Shown here in pieces: positions 24,833 through 31,935 of a DNA stretch of 64,000 nt (the first letter of the stretch is position 1; each line of letters starts with the position of its first letter). The notes under the pieces are model-generated. The model was not told the origin of the DNA. It did no database searches and worked only from the letters and a program-made list of their open reading frames with translations. This DNA comes from an uncultured Clostridia bacterium (GTDB taxonomy: Bacteria > Bacillota > Clostridia > TANB77 > CAG-508). Both the position numbers and the translations under genes were made by a program. Location: contig CAKPDR010000009.1 in the NCBI GenBank assembly GCA_934149075.1, positions 1,565-65,564 of the forward strand, written 5' to 3'.

Positions 24833-26531
24833 ATGCCAATTTCTTTAAGTAATAAAAAGAAAATGAGAAATGCATTATTTATTGTTTTAATTGTTTTAAC
24901 ATTGCTAACAACAAGATTAGCTTATATTCAATTTGTATGGGGAGTCGAATTAAGTGAAAAAGCCGGAACTCAACAATCCCAAAGTAGAACTATAACAGCA
25001 AAAAGAGGTACTATTTATGACGCTACCGGAAAATATATTTTAGCAGAAAGTTCTAGTGTTGAATTTGTAAGTGTAAATCCAACAAATATTTCTGATAAAA
25101 ATAAAGAAATAGTTGCAAAAGCTTTGAGTAATATTTTTGAACTTGATTATGAAAAAGTATTAAAAAAAGTATCTAAAAGAAGTTCTATCGAAACAATTGT
25201 AAAAAAAGTTGATAAAGAAAAGGCTGATGAATTAAGAACTTGGATGGAACAAAACGGAATAACTACTGGTATTAATATTGATGAGGATTCTAAAAGATAT
25301 TATCCTTATGGAGATCTTGCTGCACAAGTTATCGGATTTTGTGGTAGTGATAATCAAGGTTTAGATGGTGTTGAAGCAAAATATGATGATGAATTAAAAG
25401 GTACTAATGGAAAAATAAATAGGCAAACCAATGCAGCTGGTGTTAGTCTTGGTGATGAAGATTATGTTGCTGCAATTGATGGAAATAATTTATATTTAAC
25501 TATTGATATGACAATTCAATCTATTGTTGAAAAATACTTAGAAGAAGCTTGTATTGATAATGTTTGTACAGATGGTGGAAGTATTATTGCGATGGATCCA
25601 CGTAATGGTGACATTTTAGCTATGGCAACCTATCCTAGTTATGATTTAAATTCACCTTATGAACCTCATACAGAGGAATTAAAATCTGAATGGAATACAA
25701 TGGATTCACAAGCAAAATCTATTGCATTACAGAGTATGTGGAGAAATAAAGCTGTTTCTGATACTTATGAACCTGGTTCAGTTTTTAAAACTGTTACTGC
25801 CTCTGCTGCTCTCCAAGAAGGTATTGTTACCAATATAGATCAACAAGGTCAATTCTGCTGTACTGGTTCAATTGAAGTTGCAAAAACTAGGATAAAATGT
25901 TGGAGATATTATAGACCACATGGTTCTGAAAGTTTAAGATTAGCTTTAATGAATTCTTGTAATCCTGTTTTTATAGGATTAGGACAAAAAATCGGTATTA
26001 CAAAATATTATGAATATTTACGAAAATTTGGATTATTTTCTAAAACTGGAATTAAACTTCCCGGTGAAGCAAATAGTATTTTTGTAAAAGAGGAAAAAGC
26101 TGGTCCTGTTGAACTAGCAACTATTAGTTTTGGTCAAAGATTCGAAATTACTCCTCTTCAAATGATTACTGCAGTTTCTTCTATTGCTAATAATGGTGTT
26201 TATATAAAGCCTCGTATTGTTAGAAGTGTCCAAAATAGTGTGACTGGCGAAATTACTGATATGCCTATTGAAACTGGTGAACAAATTATTTCAAAAGAAA
26301 ACGCTCAAAAAGTTCTTAGTATGATGAATAGTGTTGTTTCTGAGGGTACTGGAAAAAATGCAAGAGTTGAAGGTTATCAAGTGGGTGGAAAAACTGGTAC
26401 TTCTGAAGATGGTGTTAATACTGGAAAATATGTTACTTCCTTTTGCGGTGTTGCTGAAACTGATAATCCTGAAATTGTTTTATTAATTACTTTATATAAT
26501 CCAACTGGTGAGGGGGGACATCAAGGAGGTG
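24833..26531 (+). CDS. class-B penicillin-binding protein (SpoVD/FtsI/PBP2 family), 5' segment, interrupted
   Basis: TM anchor, PBP dimerisation domain, and transpeptidase motifs SVFK, SCN and KTGT. Homology ends at ...GEGGHQGG. The ORF track then reads an unrelated tail, AWLILSLHIIL*, to 26566. Confidence 0.85.
26518..26531. repeat. left copy of the 14-bp direct repeat ACATCAAGGAGGTG (putative attL core)
   Basis: Identical 14-mer at 31854-31867. The flanking bases differ immediately outside it. Confidence 0.8.
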
Positions 26532-26629
26532 CGTGGCTCATTTTGTCACTACATATCATTCTATAATGTTTAAACATTCAAAAAGAGTAATGGATAGCTT
26601 ATTTATGCTATCCATTACTCTTTTAAAGG

Positions 26630-27205
26630 TTAATCAAAGTTAACTTCAGGTACTTTTTTCGCACTCTCATCAGCTTCAAAATACTGCATTGGATAATATC
26701 CACTCATTCCAGCAATAAAACTACTTGGGATACTCTGTACTTTGGTATTATAAGCCTTTACTTTCTCATTATAATACTGTCTTGCTACAGAAATTCTATT
26801 TTCAGTTCCAGCTAATTCATCCTGTAATGCAATGAATTGTTCACTTGCTTTAAGCTCCGGATAATTCTCCGAAATTGCAAGTAATCTTCCTAGTGCAGAG
26901 TCTAAAGCATTGTTTGCTTCACTGATACTTTCAATATTTCCACTTTCAATACTTCCTGAAAGTTTCGCTCTCGCATCAGCAATTTCGGTAAATACTTCTT
27001 TCTCATGAGTTGCATAGCCTTTAACCGTTGCTACAAGATTCGGAATAAGGTCGCTCCGTCTCTGAAGTGTTGTCTCAATTTGAGACTGCTGCATTTCGAC
27101 ATCTTCTTTCAAAGATACCAAACTGTTTTTGGTTCCAAAAAACCAAAATGCTACCAAAATTACTACTGCAATTACTCCAAATAATACGCTTCTTCCACTC
27201 TTCAT
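26630..27205 (-). CDS. lemA: LemA family protein
   Basis: 191 aa with an N-terminal TM helix and the motif QRRSDLIPNLVATVKGYATHEKEVF. Confidence 0.9.
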   Translation of the reverse strand: MKSGRSVLFGVIAVVILVAFWFFGTKNSLVSLKEDVEMQQSQIETTLQRRSDLIPNLVATVKGYATHEKEVFTEIADARAKLSGSIESGNIESISEANNALDSALGRLLAISENYPELKASEQFIALQDELAGTENRISVARQYYNEKVKAYNTKVQSIPSSFIAGMSGYYPMQYFEADESAKKVPEVNFD

Positions 27206-27258
27206 GTAAATTACCTCCTAAAGTTTTGATTTTTTGTTTTCAATTTACAATTTGATTG

Positions 27259-28020
27259 TTATCTTGAGGCACCACCACCTCCGGAAAAACCTCCGCCGAA
27301 TCCTCCACCGGAAAATCCTCCGCCCGAAAATCCTCCACTAGAAAATCCTCCTGATGAACTTCCTCCACCACAGATAACTCCAATAATAATTAATGCAATA
27401 AGAATTATAACAATAATTATCAGTGCCCATGATGGTAATTCCTCATCAGAATCAGCTTCTTCATCAACAGAAATCTTACTTTCCACACCCTGAATTGATA
27501 TTTCATATTCTTCAGCCAAAACATTTAAAACTGCTTTAACAGTCATTTCTGTTGCTTTAGTATACTCATTATTTTCACGGTAAGGGACAAAATATTTGTC
27601 AAGAATTCGACCACATTTTGAGTCATTTAAGGCTCCTTCTAGTCCTCTGCCAATTTCAAGTCTAACTTTTTTATCAGACCGAGAAAATAGCAGTAGTGCT
27701 CCGTTGTCTTTTCCCTTTTTGCCAATTCCTAAAGTATTAAATAGATTATTTGCATAATCTTCAATACTTCTATCAAGCAGACTTTTTACTGATACAACAG
27801 CAAACTCTGCTTCTGTCTTTTCTTCAAGTTCTACCAGCATTTTGTTGAGTTTCTTTTCTACATCATCATCAATAATGTTATCATCATCATAGATGTAGAC
27901 ATCTTTCTCAATTTTGGGAATTGGAATTTTCTCTACTGATGTGGTACATCCAGTAATCATACTCACAAGTATAATTACCACCATAAATAGTGCATAAGAA
28001 GTTATCCGTTTTTTTCTCAT
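27259..28020 (-). CDS. TPM-domain lipoprotein with a Gly-rich C-terminal tail
   Basis: Lipobox ITGC. TPM/YgcG-like domain (YIYDDDNIIDDD...FAVVSV...GKKGKDNGALLLFS). One TM helix. Tail GGFSSGGFSGGGFSGGGFGGGFSGGGGASR. Confidence 0.8.
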   Translation of the reverse strand: MRKKRITSYALFMVVIILVSMITGCTTSVEKIPIPKIEKDVYIYDDDNIIDDDVEKKLNKMLVELEEKTEAEFAVVSVKSLLDRSIEDYANNLFNTLGIGKKGKDNGALLLFSRSDKKVRLEIGRGLEGALNDSKCGRILDKYFVPYRENNEYTKATEMTVKAVLNVLAEEYEISIQGVESKISVDEEADSDEELPSWALIIIVIILIALIIIGVICGGGSSSGGFSSGGFSGGGFSGGGFGGGFSGGGGASR

Positions 28021-30137: not shown

Positions 30138-30184
30138 TCTATTATACTGGATAAATTATACTAAAAGAAGGGAGATAAAACTTA

Positions 30185-31832
30185 ATGGCTGGGCGAAAAT
30201 CCAAATATACTTTCCAAACAACAAATACAAATGCAACTAAAATATGGTCAGTTGCAATATATATACGACTTTCACAAGAAGATAGTGATAATGGAGAAGA
30301 CAAGCAAGAAAGCAATAGCATTACAAACCAAAAGGCATTACTGAATGAATTTATTGAAGAGCATAATGATTTAGTTGTCTATGATACTTATGTAGATGAT
30401 GGCTATACAGGAACAGATTTTAATAGACCTGGATTTCAAAGGTTACTAGAAGATATGAGAAACGGAAATATAAATTGTGTTCTAGTTAAAGATTTATCAA
30501 GACTTGGAAGAAATTACATAGAAGTTGGAAATTATATAGAGCAAATTTTCCCACTATTTAATATAAGATTTATTGCTATCAATGATAGTATAGATAGTTT
30601 TAAAAATCCTACAAGTACAAATACAATATTGGTACCATTTAAAAATTTAATTAATGATGAATACTGCCGAGATACATCTATCAAAATAAGGTCTGCTCTA
30701 ATTGGAAAGAAAAAAAGGCGGAGAATTTGTAGGTGCATTTCCATCTTACGGGTATATAAAAAATCCAGAAGATAATCACAAGTTAATTATCGATAAAGAT
30801 TCAGCCGAAATTGTAAAAAAAATTTTTGAATGGAAAGTAAATGAAGGATTAGGTAATTTAAGTATATGTCATAGACTAAATAATATGGGAATTTTAAATC
30901 CAACAGGTTACAAAAAGAAAAGATTGAATCAAAATTATAATAATTCTAAAATAATGCAAGAAGATTATTCATGGTGTCCATCAACAGTCAGAAATATCTT
31001 AAAAAATGATATTTATATAGGAAATATAACTCAAGGTAAAAGGAAAGTAAAAAGCTATAAAGTTCACAAAATAGAACAAGTACCAGAAGAAGATTGGATT
31101 ACAGTAGAAAATATGCATGAACCAATTATAGATAAAGTTCTATTTGAAAAAGCACAAAAAATGAGAAAAGTTGATACAAGAGTCCAAAATAATGGAAGTT
31201 TAAGTATGTGGGCCGGTATACTTAAATGTGCAGATTGTGGCAGATCAATGCATAAAAAAAGTTGTAGAAATAAAAGTGGTTCTGTTTATGAATATTACAT
31301 ATGTAGCACATATAGAAAAAAATCAAATAAGTTATGCACAAAACATACCTTAAAAGTGGAAGAATTAGAAAGCGCTGTCTTGGAGGCTATTAAATTACAT
31401 ATAGATATGTTTGCTGATATTGAAAAAATATTAGAACATATCAACAAGTCAAATGTACAAAAGTTATCTAATAATAATATTGAAAACATAAAAAAGTCAA
31501 AAAAAACAGAAATAGATAAATTAAATAATTTAAAAAGATACTTATATGAAGATTGGAAAAATAATTATATAACCAAAAACGAATACTTAGAATATAAACA
31601 AAAATATGAGTATGATATAAACAAAATAAAAGAAGAGTTGATAAATCTAGATAACCAAAAAGAAAATCAAGAAGAAGTTATATGTCAAAATAGCAAATGG
31701 GTTGAAAACTTAAGAATATATAAAAATATTACTAAATTAGATAGAGATATTATAACAGAATTAATAGATTACATAGAAGTTCATGAAAATAAAAGAATAA
31801 CAATTCATTTTAAATTTATGAATGAATCATAA
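30185..31832 (+). pseudogene. large serine recombinase (SpoIVCA/TnpX-like), frame broken at an A7 run
   Basis: ORF 30185-30775 holds the resolvase catalytic domain (YIRLSQEDSD..., VKDLSRLGRN). ORF 30702-31832 holds the recombinase domain, a Cys-rich zinc ribbon (CADCG...C..C) and a coiled coil. Removing one A from 30710-30716 gives the continuous sequence ...IGKKKGGEFVGAFPSYGY... Confidence 0.85.
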
Positions 31833-31853
31833 TGCCTATTGTAGTGTTTAAAT

Positions 31854-31867
31854 ACATCAAGGAGGTG
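31854..31867. repeat. right copy of the 14-bp direct repeat ACATCAAGGAGGTG (putative attR core)
   Basis: Identical to 26518-26531. Confidence 0.8.
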
Positions 31868-31935
31868 GTGTTGCAGCACCTGTTGGCGGTAAAATATTTG
31901 GTGAAGTTCTACCTTATTTAGATACAAAAAAATAA
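31868..31935 (+). CDS. 3' segment of the interrupted PBP gene
   Basis: In frame with the repeat it reads (HQGG)GVAAPVGGKIFGEVLPYLDTKK*, a typical class-B PBP C-terminus. 1699 + 68 nt = 1767 = 3 x 589. Confidence 0.7.

What the first reader, a model, noticed from the sequence alone, without database searches (positions are those of the whole stretch)
24833..31935. Class-B PBP gene split by a 5.3-kb serine-recombinase element; excision at a 14-bp repeat would rebuild the ORF
Homology to class-B PBPs (SxxK, SxN and KTG motifs all present) stops at ...GEGGHQGG at 26531 and is replaced by an 11-codon unrelated tail. The 14-mer ACATCAAGGAGGTG at 26518-26531 recurs exactly at 31854-31867. From there the same frame reads HQGG-GVAAPVGGKIFGEVLPYLDTKK-stop, which looks like the missing PBP C-terminus. 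It is followed by a strong terminator. Deleting one repeat plus the interval gives 1767 nt = 589 codons in frame. An LSR gene ends 21 bp from the right repeat and is co-directional with the PBP gene. This matches the architecture of skin (sigK/SpoIVCA) and SPbeta (spsM/SprA) intervening elements, which are excised in the mother cell. SpoVD-type PBPs are mother-cell cortex enzymes. Two points are unusual. First, the break is only 22 codons from the end and after all catalytic motifs, so the truncated protein might work without excision. Second, the cargo is not phage-like.
Basis: partly seen in the sequence, partly recalled or inferred. Interest (0 to 1): 0.8.

Follow-up and report, generated by a model that had tools for sequence, protein, structure and literature searches.

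The report
Recombinase island splitting a sporulation-type PBP gene
A 5.3-kb non-viral mobile element has inserted precisely into the end of a sporulation-type cell-wall enzyme gene of a gut Clostridium; it belongs to a large, apparently undescribed family that always hits this same spot, but this copy's recombinase gene is broken, so it is probably stuck rather than cut out during spore formation.

Summary
The class-B PBP ORF (24833-26566) loses homology after GEGGHQGG. The 14-mer occurs only at 26518-26531 and 31854-31867. Removing 5,336 bp rebuilds a 588-aa ORF, and strains of the same species (99.2-99.4% nt identity) carry exactly that uninterrupted gene.

The insert is a small non-phage island: LemA, two TPM proteins, a DUF6870 small ORF and a TndX-like large serine recombinase (LSR). 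It belongs to a family of 3-11 kb LSR elements. In at least 63 of 80 species-level genomes of uncultured gut Clostridia these sit at the same codons of SpoVD-like PBP genes.

The skin/SPbeta-style mother-cell excision is not supported for this copy:
- The LSR carries a +1 frameshift in every copy seen (at least 100 contigs, no intact allele).
- One strain acquired the element by homologous recombination of the flanks.
- A second LSR element in the window, splitting a pdaA-like cortex gene, has a doubly frameshifted recombinase.

Excision by a helper LSR or by slippage is not excluded. A sister element with an independent frameshift in the same tract is 100% identical in two different species.

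Verdict: a real, new member of a known kind, moderately interesting.

The parts
24788..24795 (+). CATACATT, a sigma-E-type -10-like octamer 38 nt upstream of the PBP start codon (weak lead only)
   Evidence: 8 matches to CATACANT in the window against 13 expected, and one sits here. It is conserved in sister-species locus L001. The consensus is from my own knowledge of B. subtilis sigma-E promoters.
24833..26531 (+). 5' part of the SpoVD-like class-B PBP gene (residues 1-566, ending GEGGHQGG)
   Evidence: PBP_dimer plus Transpeptidase; best NCBIfam hit spoVD_pbp at 532 bits (cutoff 688); best PDB hit 7RCZ SpoVD, E = 7e-130.
26518..26531 (+). Left copy of the 14-bp core repeat (attL core)
   Evidence: two copies, 0.01 expected. 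Searches show that empty sites carry one copy.
26532..26566 (+). Element-derived 11-codon tail (AWLILSLHIIL) plus stop. This stretch is also the left attP arm (CGTGGCTCATTTTGTCACTACA), which is conserved across the family at the DNA level.
   Evidence: Tails in other species range from 1 to 35 aa, so the conservation is in the DNA, not the peptide.
26578..26628 (.). 18-bp-stem hairpin between the truncated PBP ORF and the converging lemA gene, acting as a bidirectional terminator inside the element
   Evidence: -27.8 kcal/mol, z = -9.2. The only Rfam hit is a spurious miRNA match.
26630..27205 (-). Cargo: LemA family protein
   Evidence: PF04011, E = 1.4e-59; no PADLOC hit.
27259..28020 (-). 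Cargo: TPM-domain membrane protein with a Gly-rich tail
   Evidence: PF04536, E = 3.9e-35.
28252..29745 (-). Cargo: long TPM-domain protein with a coiled-coil and a Glu/Arg-rich tail
   Evidence: PF04536, E = 8.8e-30.
29991..30137 (+). 48-aa DUF6870 small ORF, 47 nt upstream of the LSR. It holds this position across the family and is a candidate accessory or directionality factor (function unknown).
   Evidence: Homologues lie upstream of LSRs that are 60-84% identical; several score above the Pfam cutoff.
30185..30775 (+). LSR N-terminal reading frame: the Resolvase catalytic domain, running into 18 out-of-frame codons
   Evidence: the exact 196-aa product is found in 90 contigs.
30704..30728 (+). 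Lys-codon / poly-A tract GGAAAGAAAAAAAGGCGGAGAATTT. It is 25 nt here and 24 nt in intact relatives, a net +1 frameshift.
   Evidence: All 10 copies examined carry it.
30702..31832 (+). LSR C-terminal reading frame: Recombinase, Zn_ribbon_recom and DUF4368 domains
   Evidence: 376-aa fragment in at least 70 contigs; 36-37% identity to TndX.
31833..31853 (+). Right attP arm (TGTAGTGTTTAAAT), an imperfect inverted repeat of the left arm
31854..31867 (+). Right copy of the core repeat (attR core)
   Evidence: (12 nt in the other haplotype).
31868..31935 (+). Orphan 3' end of the PBP gene (GVAAPVGGKIFGEVLPYLDTKK plus stop)
   Evidence: It is identical to the C-terminus of the intact same-species allele P0262.
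31964..31979 (+). Native terminator of the PBP gene

Best explanation
The window holds an integrated, non-viral genomic islet of 5,336 bp (26532-31867).

How it got there. A TndX-like large serine recombinase placed it by conservative site-specific recombination between an attP of about 50 bp and an attB inside the codons GEGGHQGG|GVAAP of a SpoVD-like, PASTA-less class-B PBP gene. The crossover lies within CAAGGAGG of the shared core. The element belongs to a large family of 3-11 kb LSR elements with this layout: host gene 5' part, variable accessory cargo, DUF6870 small ORF, LSR, host gene 3' part. The family's recombinases have kept this one attB. As a result they colonise both the dcw-cluster (PASTA-type) and the ddl-adjacent (PASTA-less) SpoVD-like genes of many uncultured gut Clostridia.

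State of this copy. In this species the recombinase gene carries a net +1 frameshift in a Lys-codon/poly-A tract in every copy observed. The copy is therefore most likely non-autonomous. It persists as a common polymorphism, with roughly two thirds of alleles occupied. It moves between strains at least partly by homologous recombination of its flanks.

Effect on the PBP. The PBP is left 22 residues short. It lacks the last segment before the position where PASTA-type relatives continue into PASTA; that this segment is the terminal helix of the transpeptidase fold is my inference. Transcription ends at an element-borne terminator. I infer that this is tolerated because the gene is a sporulation-type, non-essential or redundant paralogue.

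Shown: the insertion, its exact boundaries, empty sites, family-wide target specificity, the fixed frameshift, and flank recombination in one strain.

Inferred: loss of autonomy, impairment of the truncated PBP, and the reason it is tolerated.
For: Boundaries and empty sites.

Intact alleles: intact 588-aa alleles include a same-species allele with an identical C-terminus.

LSR identity: domains; 36-37% identity to annotated TndX; no relative above 50% identity in phage records or IMG/VR.

Family target specificity:
- 80 species-level loci were retrieved.
- 39 loci have a PBP ending exactly at ...NPTGEGGHQGG followed by the conserved left arm.
- 48 loci have G(G/A)VAAP... downstream of the LSR.
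- 63 of 80 loci show at least one of these. This figure is my tally from those two lists.
- 23 complete elements measure 3.2-11.4 kb.

dcw context of PASTA-type targets.

Cargo is accessory, not phage.

Frameshift fixed.

Flank homologous recombination: in L015 the PBP 5' region is 4.4% diverged, but the last ~280 bp before attL and the element itself are near-identical.

Segment removed: the 22 aa align with the last residues of the crystallised C. difficile SpoVD construct. No conserved replacement tail exists, and 8 species stop after one codon.

Decay elsewhere in the window: a second LSR element in a pdaA-like gene has a doubly frameshifted LSR.
Against: - Both LSR reading frames are otherwise open. 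There are no stops or further indels in more than 100 contigs (apart from the single extra 1-nt deletion in L004), although element diversity is low.
- A sister element (L098/L099) with an independent +1 frameshift in the same tract is 100% identical over 7,602 nt in two species whose flanks are only 77-83% identical. Frameshifted elements can therefore still be moved site-specifically.
- I could not see the rest of the genome. A helper LSR or an intact dcw spoVD is unverified.
- The functional state of the truncated PBP is untested.
Confidence: 0.68

Rival explanations
1. Skin/SPbeta-type intervening element. During sporulation the element is excised in the mother cell at the 14-bp core. This rebuilds the full-length PBP for cortex synthesis, while the forespore keeps the element.
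For: - The architecture matches: a split gene, the LSR at the end next to the 3' fragment and co-directional, a short core, and an in-frame reconstruction equal to natural alleles.
- The target is SpoVD-like.
- A sigma-E-like -10 octamer lies upstream of the PBP gene.
- The host lineage encodes sigG, yqfC and yqfD.
- The orphan 3' fragment is undecayed and identical to the intact allele.
- A conserved small ORF next to the LSR could be an RDF.
- A second cortex-type gene (pdaA-like) in the same window is split in the same way.
- A non-phage precedent exists: gin in gerE (PMC5595907).
Against: - The LSR frameshift is universal in this lineage, so the element cannot supply its own recombinase by ordinary translation.
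- The LSR of the second element has two frameshifts.
- The LSR is TndX-like. TndX is reported as required and sufficient for both directions without an RDF (Wang & Mullany 2000, as cited in PMC4430133).
- In C. difficile, spoVD is expressed at the onset of sporulation, before asymmetric division (PMC10693644). That does not suit a mother-cell-only repair.
- No attP junction was found. The test had almost no power, because the searched collection held only one integrated copy.
- pdaA is forespore-expressed in B. subtilis (my own knowledge).
Confidence: 0.12
2. The recombinase is expressed at a low level despite the frameshift. This could happen by +1 ribosomal slippage at AAA-AGG-CGG (rare codons), by transcriptional slippage on the A7 run, or by reversible A-tract length change (phase variation). 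The element would then remain autonomously mobile but tightly throttled.
For: - The shift lies in a homopolymeric Lys-codon tract followed by rare codons in frame 0. AGG occurs at 3.2 and CGG at 0.7 per 1000 codons in the window's ORFs.
- Both frames stay open in more than 100 contigs.
- An independent net +1 shift in the same tract occurs in L098/L099, and that element has recently entered two species.
Against: - About 78 of 80 family members have no frameshift here, so it is not a conserved family feature.
- The two cases arose independently and differ in detail (the L098 LSR is 97.5% identical to the intact L008 LSR).
- An A7 run is short for efficient slippage.
- No A6 allele was seen in any assembly.
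- Low element diversity means open frames are also expected for a young pseudogene.
- The dN/dS of 0.23 between the two LSR haplotypes probably predates or bypasses the shift through recombination.
Confidence: 0.12
3. Functionally silent 3'-end integration. The truncated 577-aa PBP, which keeps all catalytic motifs and receives an element-supplied stop and terminator, still works. Neither excision nor redundancy would then be needed.
For: - The break lies after SxxK, SxN and KTG.
- The element supplies a stop codon and a strong terminator directly after the junction.
- The occupied allele is the majority allele in the species.
- The PASTA domain of SpoVD is dispensable in C. difficile and B. 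subtilis (PMC8417463).
Against: - The published deltaPASTA construct keeps the final segment (...LKYLGVK), which corresponds to the 22 aa removed here.
- The family supplies no conserved substitute: tails are 1-35 aa, and 8 species stop after one codon.
- The Pfam transpeptidase model is left incomplete (289 of 299 positions).
Confidence: 0.25

Closest known systems
skin (sigK / SpoIVCA) and SPbeta (spsM / SprA-SprB) intervening elements of Bacillus subtilis; skinCd of C. difficile
   Same: An LSR-bearing insert splits a sporulation-type gene. A short core is shared by attL and attR, precise deletion rebuilds the ORF, and the recombinase gene sits at one end.
   Different: - This element is tiny (5.3 kb) and not phage-derived.
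- Its LSR is TndX-like, with only weak NCBIfam hits to CcrB and XisF.
- No Skr, SprB or CD1234-type RDF was identified.
- The recombinase is frameshifted in all copies.
- The break is 22 codons from the stop, not mid-gene.
- Developmental excision is untested.
gin element in gerE of Bacillus cereus (GirC LSR plus the 42-aa GirX RDF; PMC5595907)
   Same: A small non-prophage LSR element inside a sporulation gene, with a very small ORF as partner of the recombinase.
   Different: - GirC and GirX were shown to act at mid-sporulation and in vitro; nothing is shown here.
- The small ORF here is a DUF6870 protein.
- The target gene, host clade and LSR lineage all differ.
Tn5397 (TndX) and Tn4451/Tn4453 (TnpX) of clostridia
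   Same: - These carry the closest annotated recombinase: TndX, at 36-37% identity over 95% of the length.
- TndX also homes to a conserved domain-coding sequence (Fic; PMC4430133).
- Some family members carry TnpV.
- The cargo is accessory genes.
   Different: There are no conjugation or mobilisation genes here. The target is a single, strictly conserved PBP site, and the element is much smaller.
SCCmec (CcrAB/CcrC) at the 3' end of rlmH (orfX)
   Same: An LSR-driven island integrates near the 3' end of a conserved housekeeping-type gene, with variable accessory cargo.
   Different: SCC integration preserves the rlmH product, whereas here 22 residues are lost. Similarity to the Ccr proteins is only distant.

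Membership tests
Large serine recombinase integrative element | Recombinase with an N-terminal Resolvase catalytic domain, a Recombinase domain and a zinc ribbon or coiled-coil C-terminal region | tested here: met
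   PF00239, PF07508, PF13408 and PF14287 across the two frames. The sequence YIRLSQED contains the candidate nucleophile serine.
Large serine recombinase integrative element | Intact recombinase reading frame | tested here: not met
   A net +1 frameshift at 30704-30728 is present in all copies.
Large serine recombinase integrative element | Precise insertion at a specific attB, a short shared core, imperfect inverted-repeat arms, and empty sites carrying one core copy | tested here: met
Sporulation-gene intervening element (skin-like) | The interrupted gene is a sporulation (mother-cell) gene | tested here: inconclusive
   The best hits are SpoVD. However, the score is 532 against a cutoff of 688, there is no PASTA domain, and the gene is outside the dcw cluster. 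The sigma-E-like -10 is only a weak lead.
Sporulation-gene intervening element (skin-like) | Excision rebuilds a functional ORF | tested here: met
   In silico only: the rebuilt ORF equals natural intact alleles of the same species.
Sporulation-gene intervening element (skin-like) | Excision occurs during sporulation and in the mother cell only | not testable with these tools
   This needs cultures, or read-level data from sporulating cells.
Sporulation-gene intervening element (skin-like) | Element-encoded RDF or recombinase under sporulation control | tested here: inconclusive
   A conserved DUF6870 small ORF is a candidate only. No sporulation-type promoter could be recognised. The sigma-70-type promoter scan is at chance level, and a conserved upstream block matches no consensus.
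SpoVD (NCBIfam TIGR02214 equivalog) | Score above the curated cutoff | tested here: not met
   532.5 bits against a cutoff of 688.
SpoVD (NCBIfam TIGR02214 equivalog) | C-terminal PASTA domain and a dcw-cluster location | tested here: not met
   No PF03793 hit. The gene lies between ddl and gatB. Paralogues hit by sister elements do have both features.
Tn5397/Tn4451-type transposons | TndX/TnpX-type LSR | tested here: met
   36-37% identity over 95% of the length to annotated tndX. This is homology at clade level, not orthology.
Tn5397/Tn4451-type transposons | Conjugation or mobilisation module | tested here: not met
   Only LemA, two TPM proteins, DUF6870 and the LSR are present.
Prophage or phage-derived element | Phage structural, replication or lysis genes, or relatives in viral collections | tested here: not met
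   PHROGs gives only the integrase and a LemA-like hit. No LSR relative above 50% identity is found in INPHARED or IMG/VR.

The most novel reading that the evidence does not exclude
Gut Clostridia harbour a previously undescribed, widespread class of miniature non-viral LSR elements that have specialised on spore-cortex genes (spoVD-type PBPs here, and a separate lineage in pdaA). These would act as removable interruptions of sporulation: excised in sporulating cells to restore cortex synthesis, or locked in to switch sporulation off. Recombinase supply would be gated by a shift-prone poly-A tract or by helper LSRs acting in trans.
Probability: 0.2. Interest if true: 0.8.

Novelty: new member of a known kind. 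Interest (0 to 1): 0.6.

Why it matters
Gene-splitting LSR elements are known in about half a dozen sporulation genes (sigK, spsM, spoVFB, spoVR, gerE, yabG). I found no report of one in a spoVD-type PBP or in pdaA.

Here the same codons of SpoVD-like genes are occupied in dozens of uncultured gut Clostridia species. If these elements are excised in sporulating cells, cortex synthesis joins the list of developmentally rearranged functions. If they are locked in, they are a common natural cause of strain-level differences in spore formation, and so in transmission of gut commensals.

The family also offers a set of LSRs with one well-defined attB of about 40-50 bp and many natural attP variants. 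The frameshifted but recently transferred L098/L099 copies are a concrete case for studying trans-mobilisation or slippage control of a recombinase.

Tried and rejected
- attP (circle) junction search in JGI metagenome contigs and IMG/VR: no hit. A control pattern found only one integrated copy in that collection, so the negative result says almost nothing.
- Promoter scan: at chance level in this 28% GC DNA. A conserved block upstream of the DUF6870 ORF (GTAATAAA...TAATAAA.TTAAATATCAAA) matches none of the sigma-A, E or K consensus sequences as I know them.
- The single 'intact' 548-aa LSR (P0125) looked like a repaired allele. It still has the A7 run, plus a second 1-nt deletion 35 nt downstream that garbles the conserved GGEFVGAFPS motif.
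- Idea that the same inserted 'C' is shared by the window and L098 (a conserved programmed shift): rejected. The L098 LSR is 97.5% identical to an intact LSR and only 85% to the window's, so the events are independent.
- dN/dS of the LSR C-part (0.23): not informative, because the divergence is a recombination tract shared by frameshifted copies.
- Defence-system reading of the cargo: no PADLOC hit.
- Rfam: only a spurious miRNA hit on the terminator hairpin.
- Naming the organism: the sources give no names, and relatives are 'uncultured Clostridia/Clostridium sp.' MAGs.
- Structure prediction was not run.
- LSR#2 as a helper for this element: rejected. It is 33% identical and itself has two frameshifts.

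Full report
**1. The observation**

The ORF at 24833-26566 encodes 577 aa with PBP_dimer and Transpeptidase domains. SVFK, SCN and KTG are all present, and the last 11 residues (AWLILSLHIIL) are unrelated to PBPs. The 14-mer ACATCAAGGAGGTG occurs only at 26518-26531 and 31854-31867, where 0.01 matches are expected by chance. After the right copy the same frame reads GVAAPVGGKIFGEVLPYLDTKK-stop, followed by a terminator hairpin. Removing 5,336 bp gives a 1,767-nt ORF. The LSR stop codon is 21 nt from the right repeat.

**2. It is a true insertion**

The rebuilt 588-aa protein has hundreds of full-length relatives of 586-594 aa. P0001 (97% identity) lies in the same ddl-PBP-small ORF-gatB context, and its DNA across the site equals the window's left flank joined to its right flank. 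However, those loci are a sister species at about 93% nt identity.

The same-species test is P0262. It differs at 2 of 566 residues and has a C-terminus identical to the window's orphan fragment. It is carried by L101-L106, which are 99.2-99.4% identical to the window over 17 kb, and their alignments break at 26535 and 31854.

Among listed members of the PBP's 90% cluster, truncated 577-aa forms account for about 81 contigs and intact forms for about 39. The flank haplotype of the sampled empty allele (P0262; L101-L104 and L106) is no more distant from occupied haplotypes than occupied ones are from each other. The site is therefore a common polymorphism in a recombining species.

**3. Anatomy of the insert**

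| Feature | Coordinates | Notes |
|---|---|---|
| Left attP arm | 26532-26566 | also encodes the foreign tail |
| Hairpin terminator | 26578-26628 | 18-bp stem, -27.8 kcal/mol, z = -9.2 |
| lemA | 26630-27205, minus strand | cargo |
| TPM-domain genes (two) | 27259-28020 and 28252-29745, minus strand | cargo |
| DUF6870 ORF | 29991-30137 | 48 aa |
| LSR | 30185-31832 | Resolvase, Recombinase, Zn ribbon and DUF4368, split by a net +1 frameshift |
| Right arm and core | 31833-31867 | |

The ends carry an imperfect inverted repeat (TGTAGTG...CACTACA). The rebuilt attB has its own 9/10 inverted repeat, CCAACTGGTG...CACCTGTTGG, centred on the core.

Nothing is phage-like. PHROGs hits are limited to the integrase and a LemA-like family, there is no PADLOC hit, and GC content is unremarkable. 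The recombinase is 36-37% identical over 95% of its length to annotated TndX of Tn5397. It has no relative above 50% identity in INPHARED or IMG/VR.

**4. A family with one target**

Intact relatives of the LSR at 60-84% identity are abundant. Some gene calls fuse the LSR to a PASTA domain. That led to loci where the LSR sits directly upstream of a PASTA fragment, murE, mraY, ftsW/spoVE and murG. There the same core follows the LSR: AAAATACATCAAGGAGG, then GGTGTTGCAGCACC encoding GVAAP.

A scan of one genome per species returned 188 relatives. The best 80 are all in uncultured Clostridia or Clostridium MAGs from human, mouse, rabbit and ruminant guts. Among those 80:
- 39 have a PBP ending exactly at NPTGEGGHQGG followed by the conserved arm G(C/A/T)GTGG..ATTTTAACAACAC.
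- 48 have G(G/A)VAAP... downstream of the LSR.
- 63 show at least one junction. This is my tally from those two lists.
- 23 complete elements measure 3.2-11.4 kb.

Both PASTA-type (dcw) and PASTA-less paralogues are hit. Cargo varies: GNAT, ABC transporter, class II aaRS, VanZ, Dcm methylase, nuclease, AAA_21, glycosyltransferase, flavodiiron protein, Cu/Zn SOD, sortase plus adhesin, and TnpV. The DUF6870 ORF keeps its place upstream of the LSR across the family.

attL-encoded tails range from 1 to 35 aa, and eight species stop after a single codon. The element therefore does not supply a conserved replacement C-terminus.

**5. What the target is**

The best NCBIfam model is spoVD_pbp, at 532 bits against a cutoff of 688, with profile positions 6-560 of 636 matched and no PASTA. 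The best solved structure by a wide margin is C. difficile SpoVD, 7RCZ, at E = 7e-130; the next hit is at 2e-57. That alignment runs to the query's last residue. The 22 aa removed therefore correspond to the last segment of the crystallised SpoVD construct, which stops just before PASTA.

The C. difficile deltaPASTA construct that restores sporulation retains that segment, as its primer sequence encoding ...NDSLKYLGVK shows (PMC8417463). Published PASTA dispensability therefore does not cover this truncation.

In C. difficile the dcw SpoVD/SpoVE pair is sporulation-specific and dispensable for growth. However, it is expressed at the onset of sporulation, before asymmetric division (PMC10693644).

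A CATACATT octamer lies 38 nt upstream of the PBP start. It is one of 8 such matches in 128 kb of strand sequence, and is a weak sigma-E lead. The window also encodes SigG, YqfC and YqfD, so the lineage is, or recently was, a spore former.

**6. The recombinase is broken everywhere**

The tract GGAAAGAAAAAAAGGCGGAGAATTT is 25 nt here and 24 nt in about 78 of 80 relatives, which read G(K/R)KKKGEF in frame. All ten copies compared carry the shift. The exact 196-aa N-fragment is on record in 90 contigs, and all ten members of its cluster are 196 aa. The 376-aa C-fragment occurs in at least 70 contigs from many independent assemblies.

The one 548-aa 'intact' protein (P0125) retains the A7 run. 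It owes its length to a second 1-nt deletion that garbles the conserved GGEFVGAFPS motif. This is a fixed mutation, not a sequencing error.

**7. How the copy spreads**

L015 has a PBP 5' region that is 4.4% diverged (74 differences). Yet the last ~280 bp before attL, and the element itself, are near-identical to the others. About 15 differences would be expected in those 280 bp; essentially none are seen. The element plus its adjacent flank was therefore imported by homologous recombination.

Element diversity is far below that of the host gene. It is also mosaic: there are 0 differences across 28252-30900, then 24-25 in the LSR 3' part between two haplotypes. The dN/dS of 0.23 in that tract is not informative about present function.

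**8. A complication that keeps the rivals alive**

L098 and L099 are two different species, with flanks 77-83% identical. They carry a 7,602-nt element with zero differences. Host divergence runs right up to the core on both sides, which places the crossover within CAAGGAGG. Its LSR also has a net +1 shift in the same Lys tract.

That LSR is 97.5% identical to an intact LSR (L008) and only 85% identical to the window's, so the two shifts arose independently. Frameshifted elements can therefore still be inserted site-specifically. Possible routes are a co-resident helper LSR of the family, slippage (AGG and CGG follow the A-run in frame 0 and are rare codons), or reversible tract length. I cannot tell which.

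**9. A second case in the same window**

On the minus strand a pdaA-like polysaccharide deacetylase is split. Its best NCBIfam hit is spore_pdaA at 281.5 bits, against a cutoff of 298. A 4,384-bp insert is bounded by a 12-bp repeat at 41652-41663 and 46036-46047. Removing it restores the NodB motif HTVNH and gives a 268-aa protein that is 100% identical to P0347.

The insert carries an unrelated LSR (33% identity) with two frameshifts, group II intron RT fragments and an unknown ORF. Here the split allele is the minority: about 11 contigs against about 80 intact among the listed cluster members.

Two cortex-type genes split by LSR elements with decayed recombinases fit two readings. Sporulation genes may be tolerated landing sites where elements become stranded. 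Alternatively, this may be a developmental-excision system in decay.

**10. Literature**

Full-text searches found papers on intervening elements in sigK, spsM, spoVFB, spoVR, gerE, yabG and spoVK. None of them mentions spoVD or a PBP as the target, and I found nothing on DUF6870.

TndX is reported as required and sufficient for both integration and excision, and it targets a conserved Fic-domain coding sequence (PMC4430133). That is the closest functional analogy for a recombinase homing to a conserved protein-motif coding sequence.

**11. Verdict**

The feature is real, precisely bounded and correctly described. It is best read as a stranded member of a new, target-specific family of small non-viral LSR islets in SpoVD-like PBP genes. 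Mother-cell excision is an attractive hypothesis for the family. It is unsupported for this copy and cannot be tested with these tools.

Noticed in passing
window 41267-46457 (minus strand); repeats at 41652-41663 and 46036-46047: A second split sporulation-type gene. A pdaA-like polysaccharide deacetylase is interrupted inside its HTVNH metal-binding motif by a 4,384-bp element. The element carries an unrelated LSR (43338-41714, with at least two frameshifts), group II intron RT fragments (44694-43828) and a 234-aa unknown ORF. Removing it gives a 268-aa protein that is 100% identical to P0347.
   Followed up: partly
L098:4128-11740 and L099:4128-11740: A 7.6-kb sister element (Dcm methylase and other cargo) is 100% identical in two species whose flanks are 77-83% identical. 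Its LSR has an independent net +1 frameshift in the same Lys-codon tract. This shows recent inter-species site-specific transfer of an element with a broken recombinase gene.
   Followed up: partly
protein P0269 (598 aa, 5 contigs), same PBP cluster: An allele whose tail begins with the same left arm (AWLILSLH) and then diverges (HEIFKQQKKQ...). It suggests a different or rearranged element in the same site of the same species.
   Followed up: no
L032, L042, L049, L086, L096; L054 and L073 (one contig): Several genomes have two family LSR genes within about 10 kb. These could be tandem elements in one att site or two-recombinase elements, and they are possible sources of trans-acting helper recombinase.
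   Followed up: no
window 29800-29990 and the matching regions of L008, L020, L034, L036, L098: A conserved non-coding block lies upstream of the DUF6870 ORF (...AAGTG(G/A)CAT.TACCTAGTAG...GTAATAAA-N13-15-TAATAAA.TTAAATATCAAA). It is probably a promoter or operator of the small-ORF/LSR operon, and it matches no sigma consensus I know.
   Followed up: partly
L004:12134-12952 versus window 32318-32338: A same-species strain has an extra 817-bp segment with a DUF1385 gene between the small ORF and gatB. The window lacks it.
   Followed up: no
window 4894-5754 (minus), 40980-41249 (minus), 39816-40958 (minus), 49075-49686 (minus): sigG (SigG equivalog, 444 bits against a cutoff of 372), yqfC, yqfD and an agrB gene are present. 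The host lineage therefore carries core sporulation genes.
   Followed up: partly
window 31991-32230 (minus): A conserved 77-79-aa ORF with no family match lies between the PBP terminator and gatB. It is found in over 150 contigs and is present in both occupied and empty loci.
   Followed up: no
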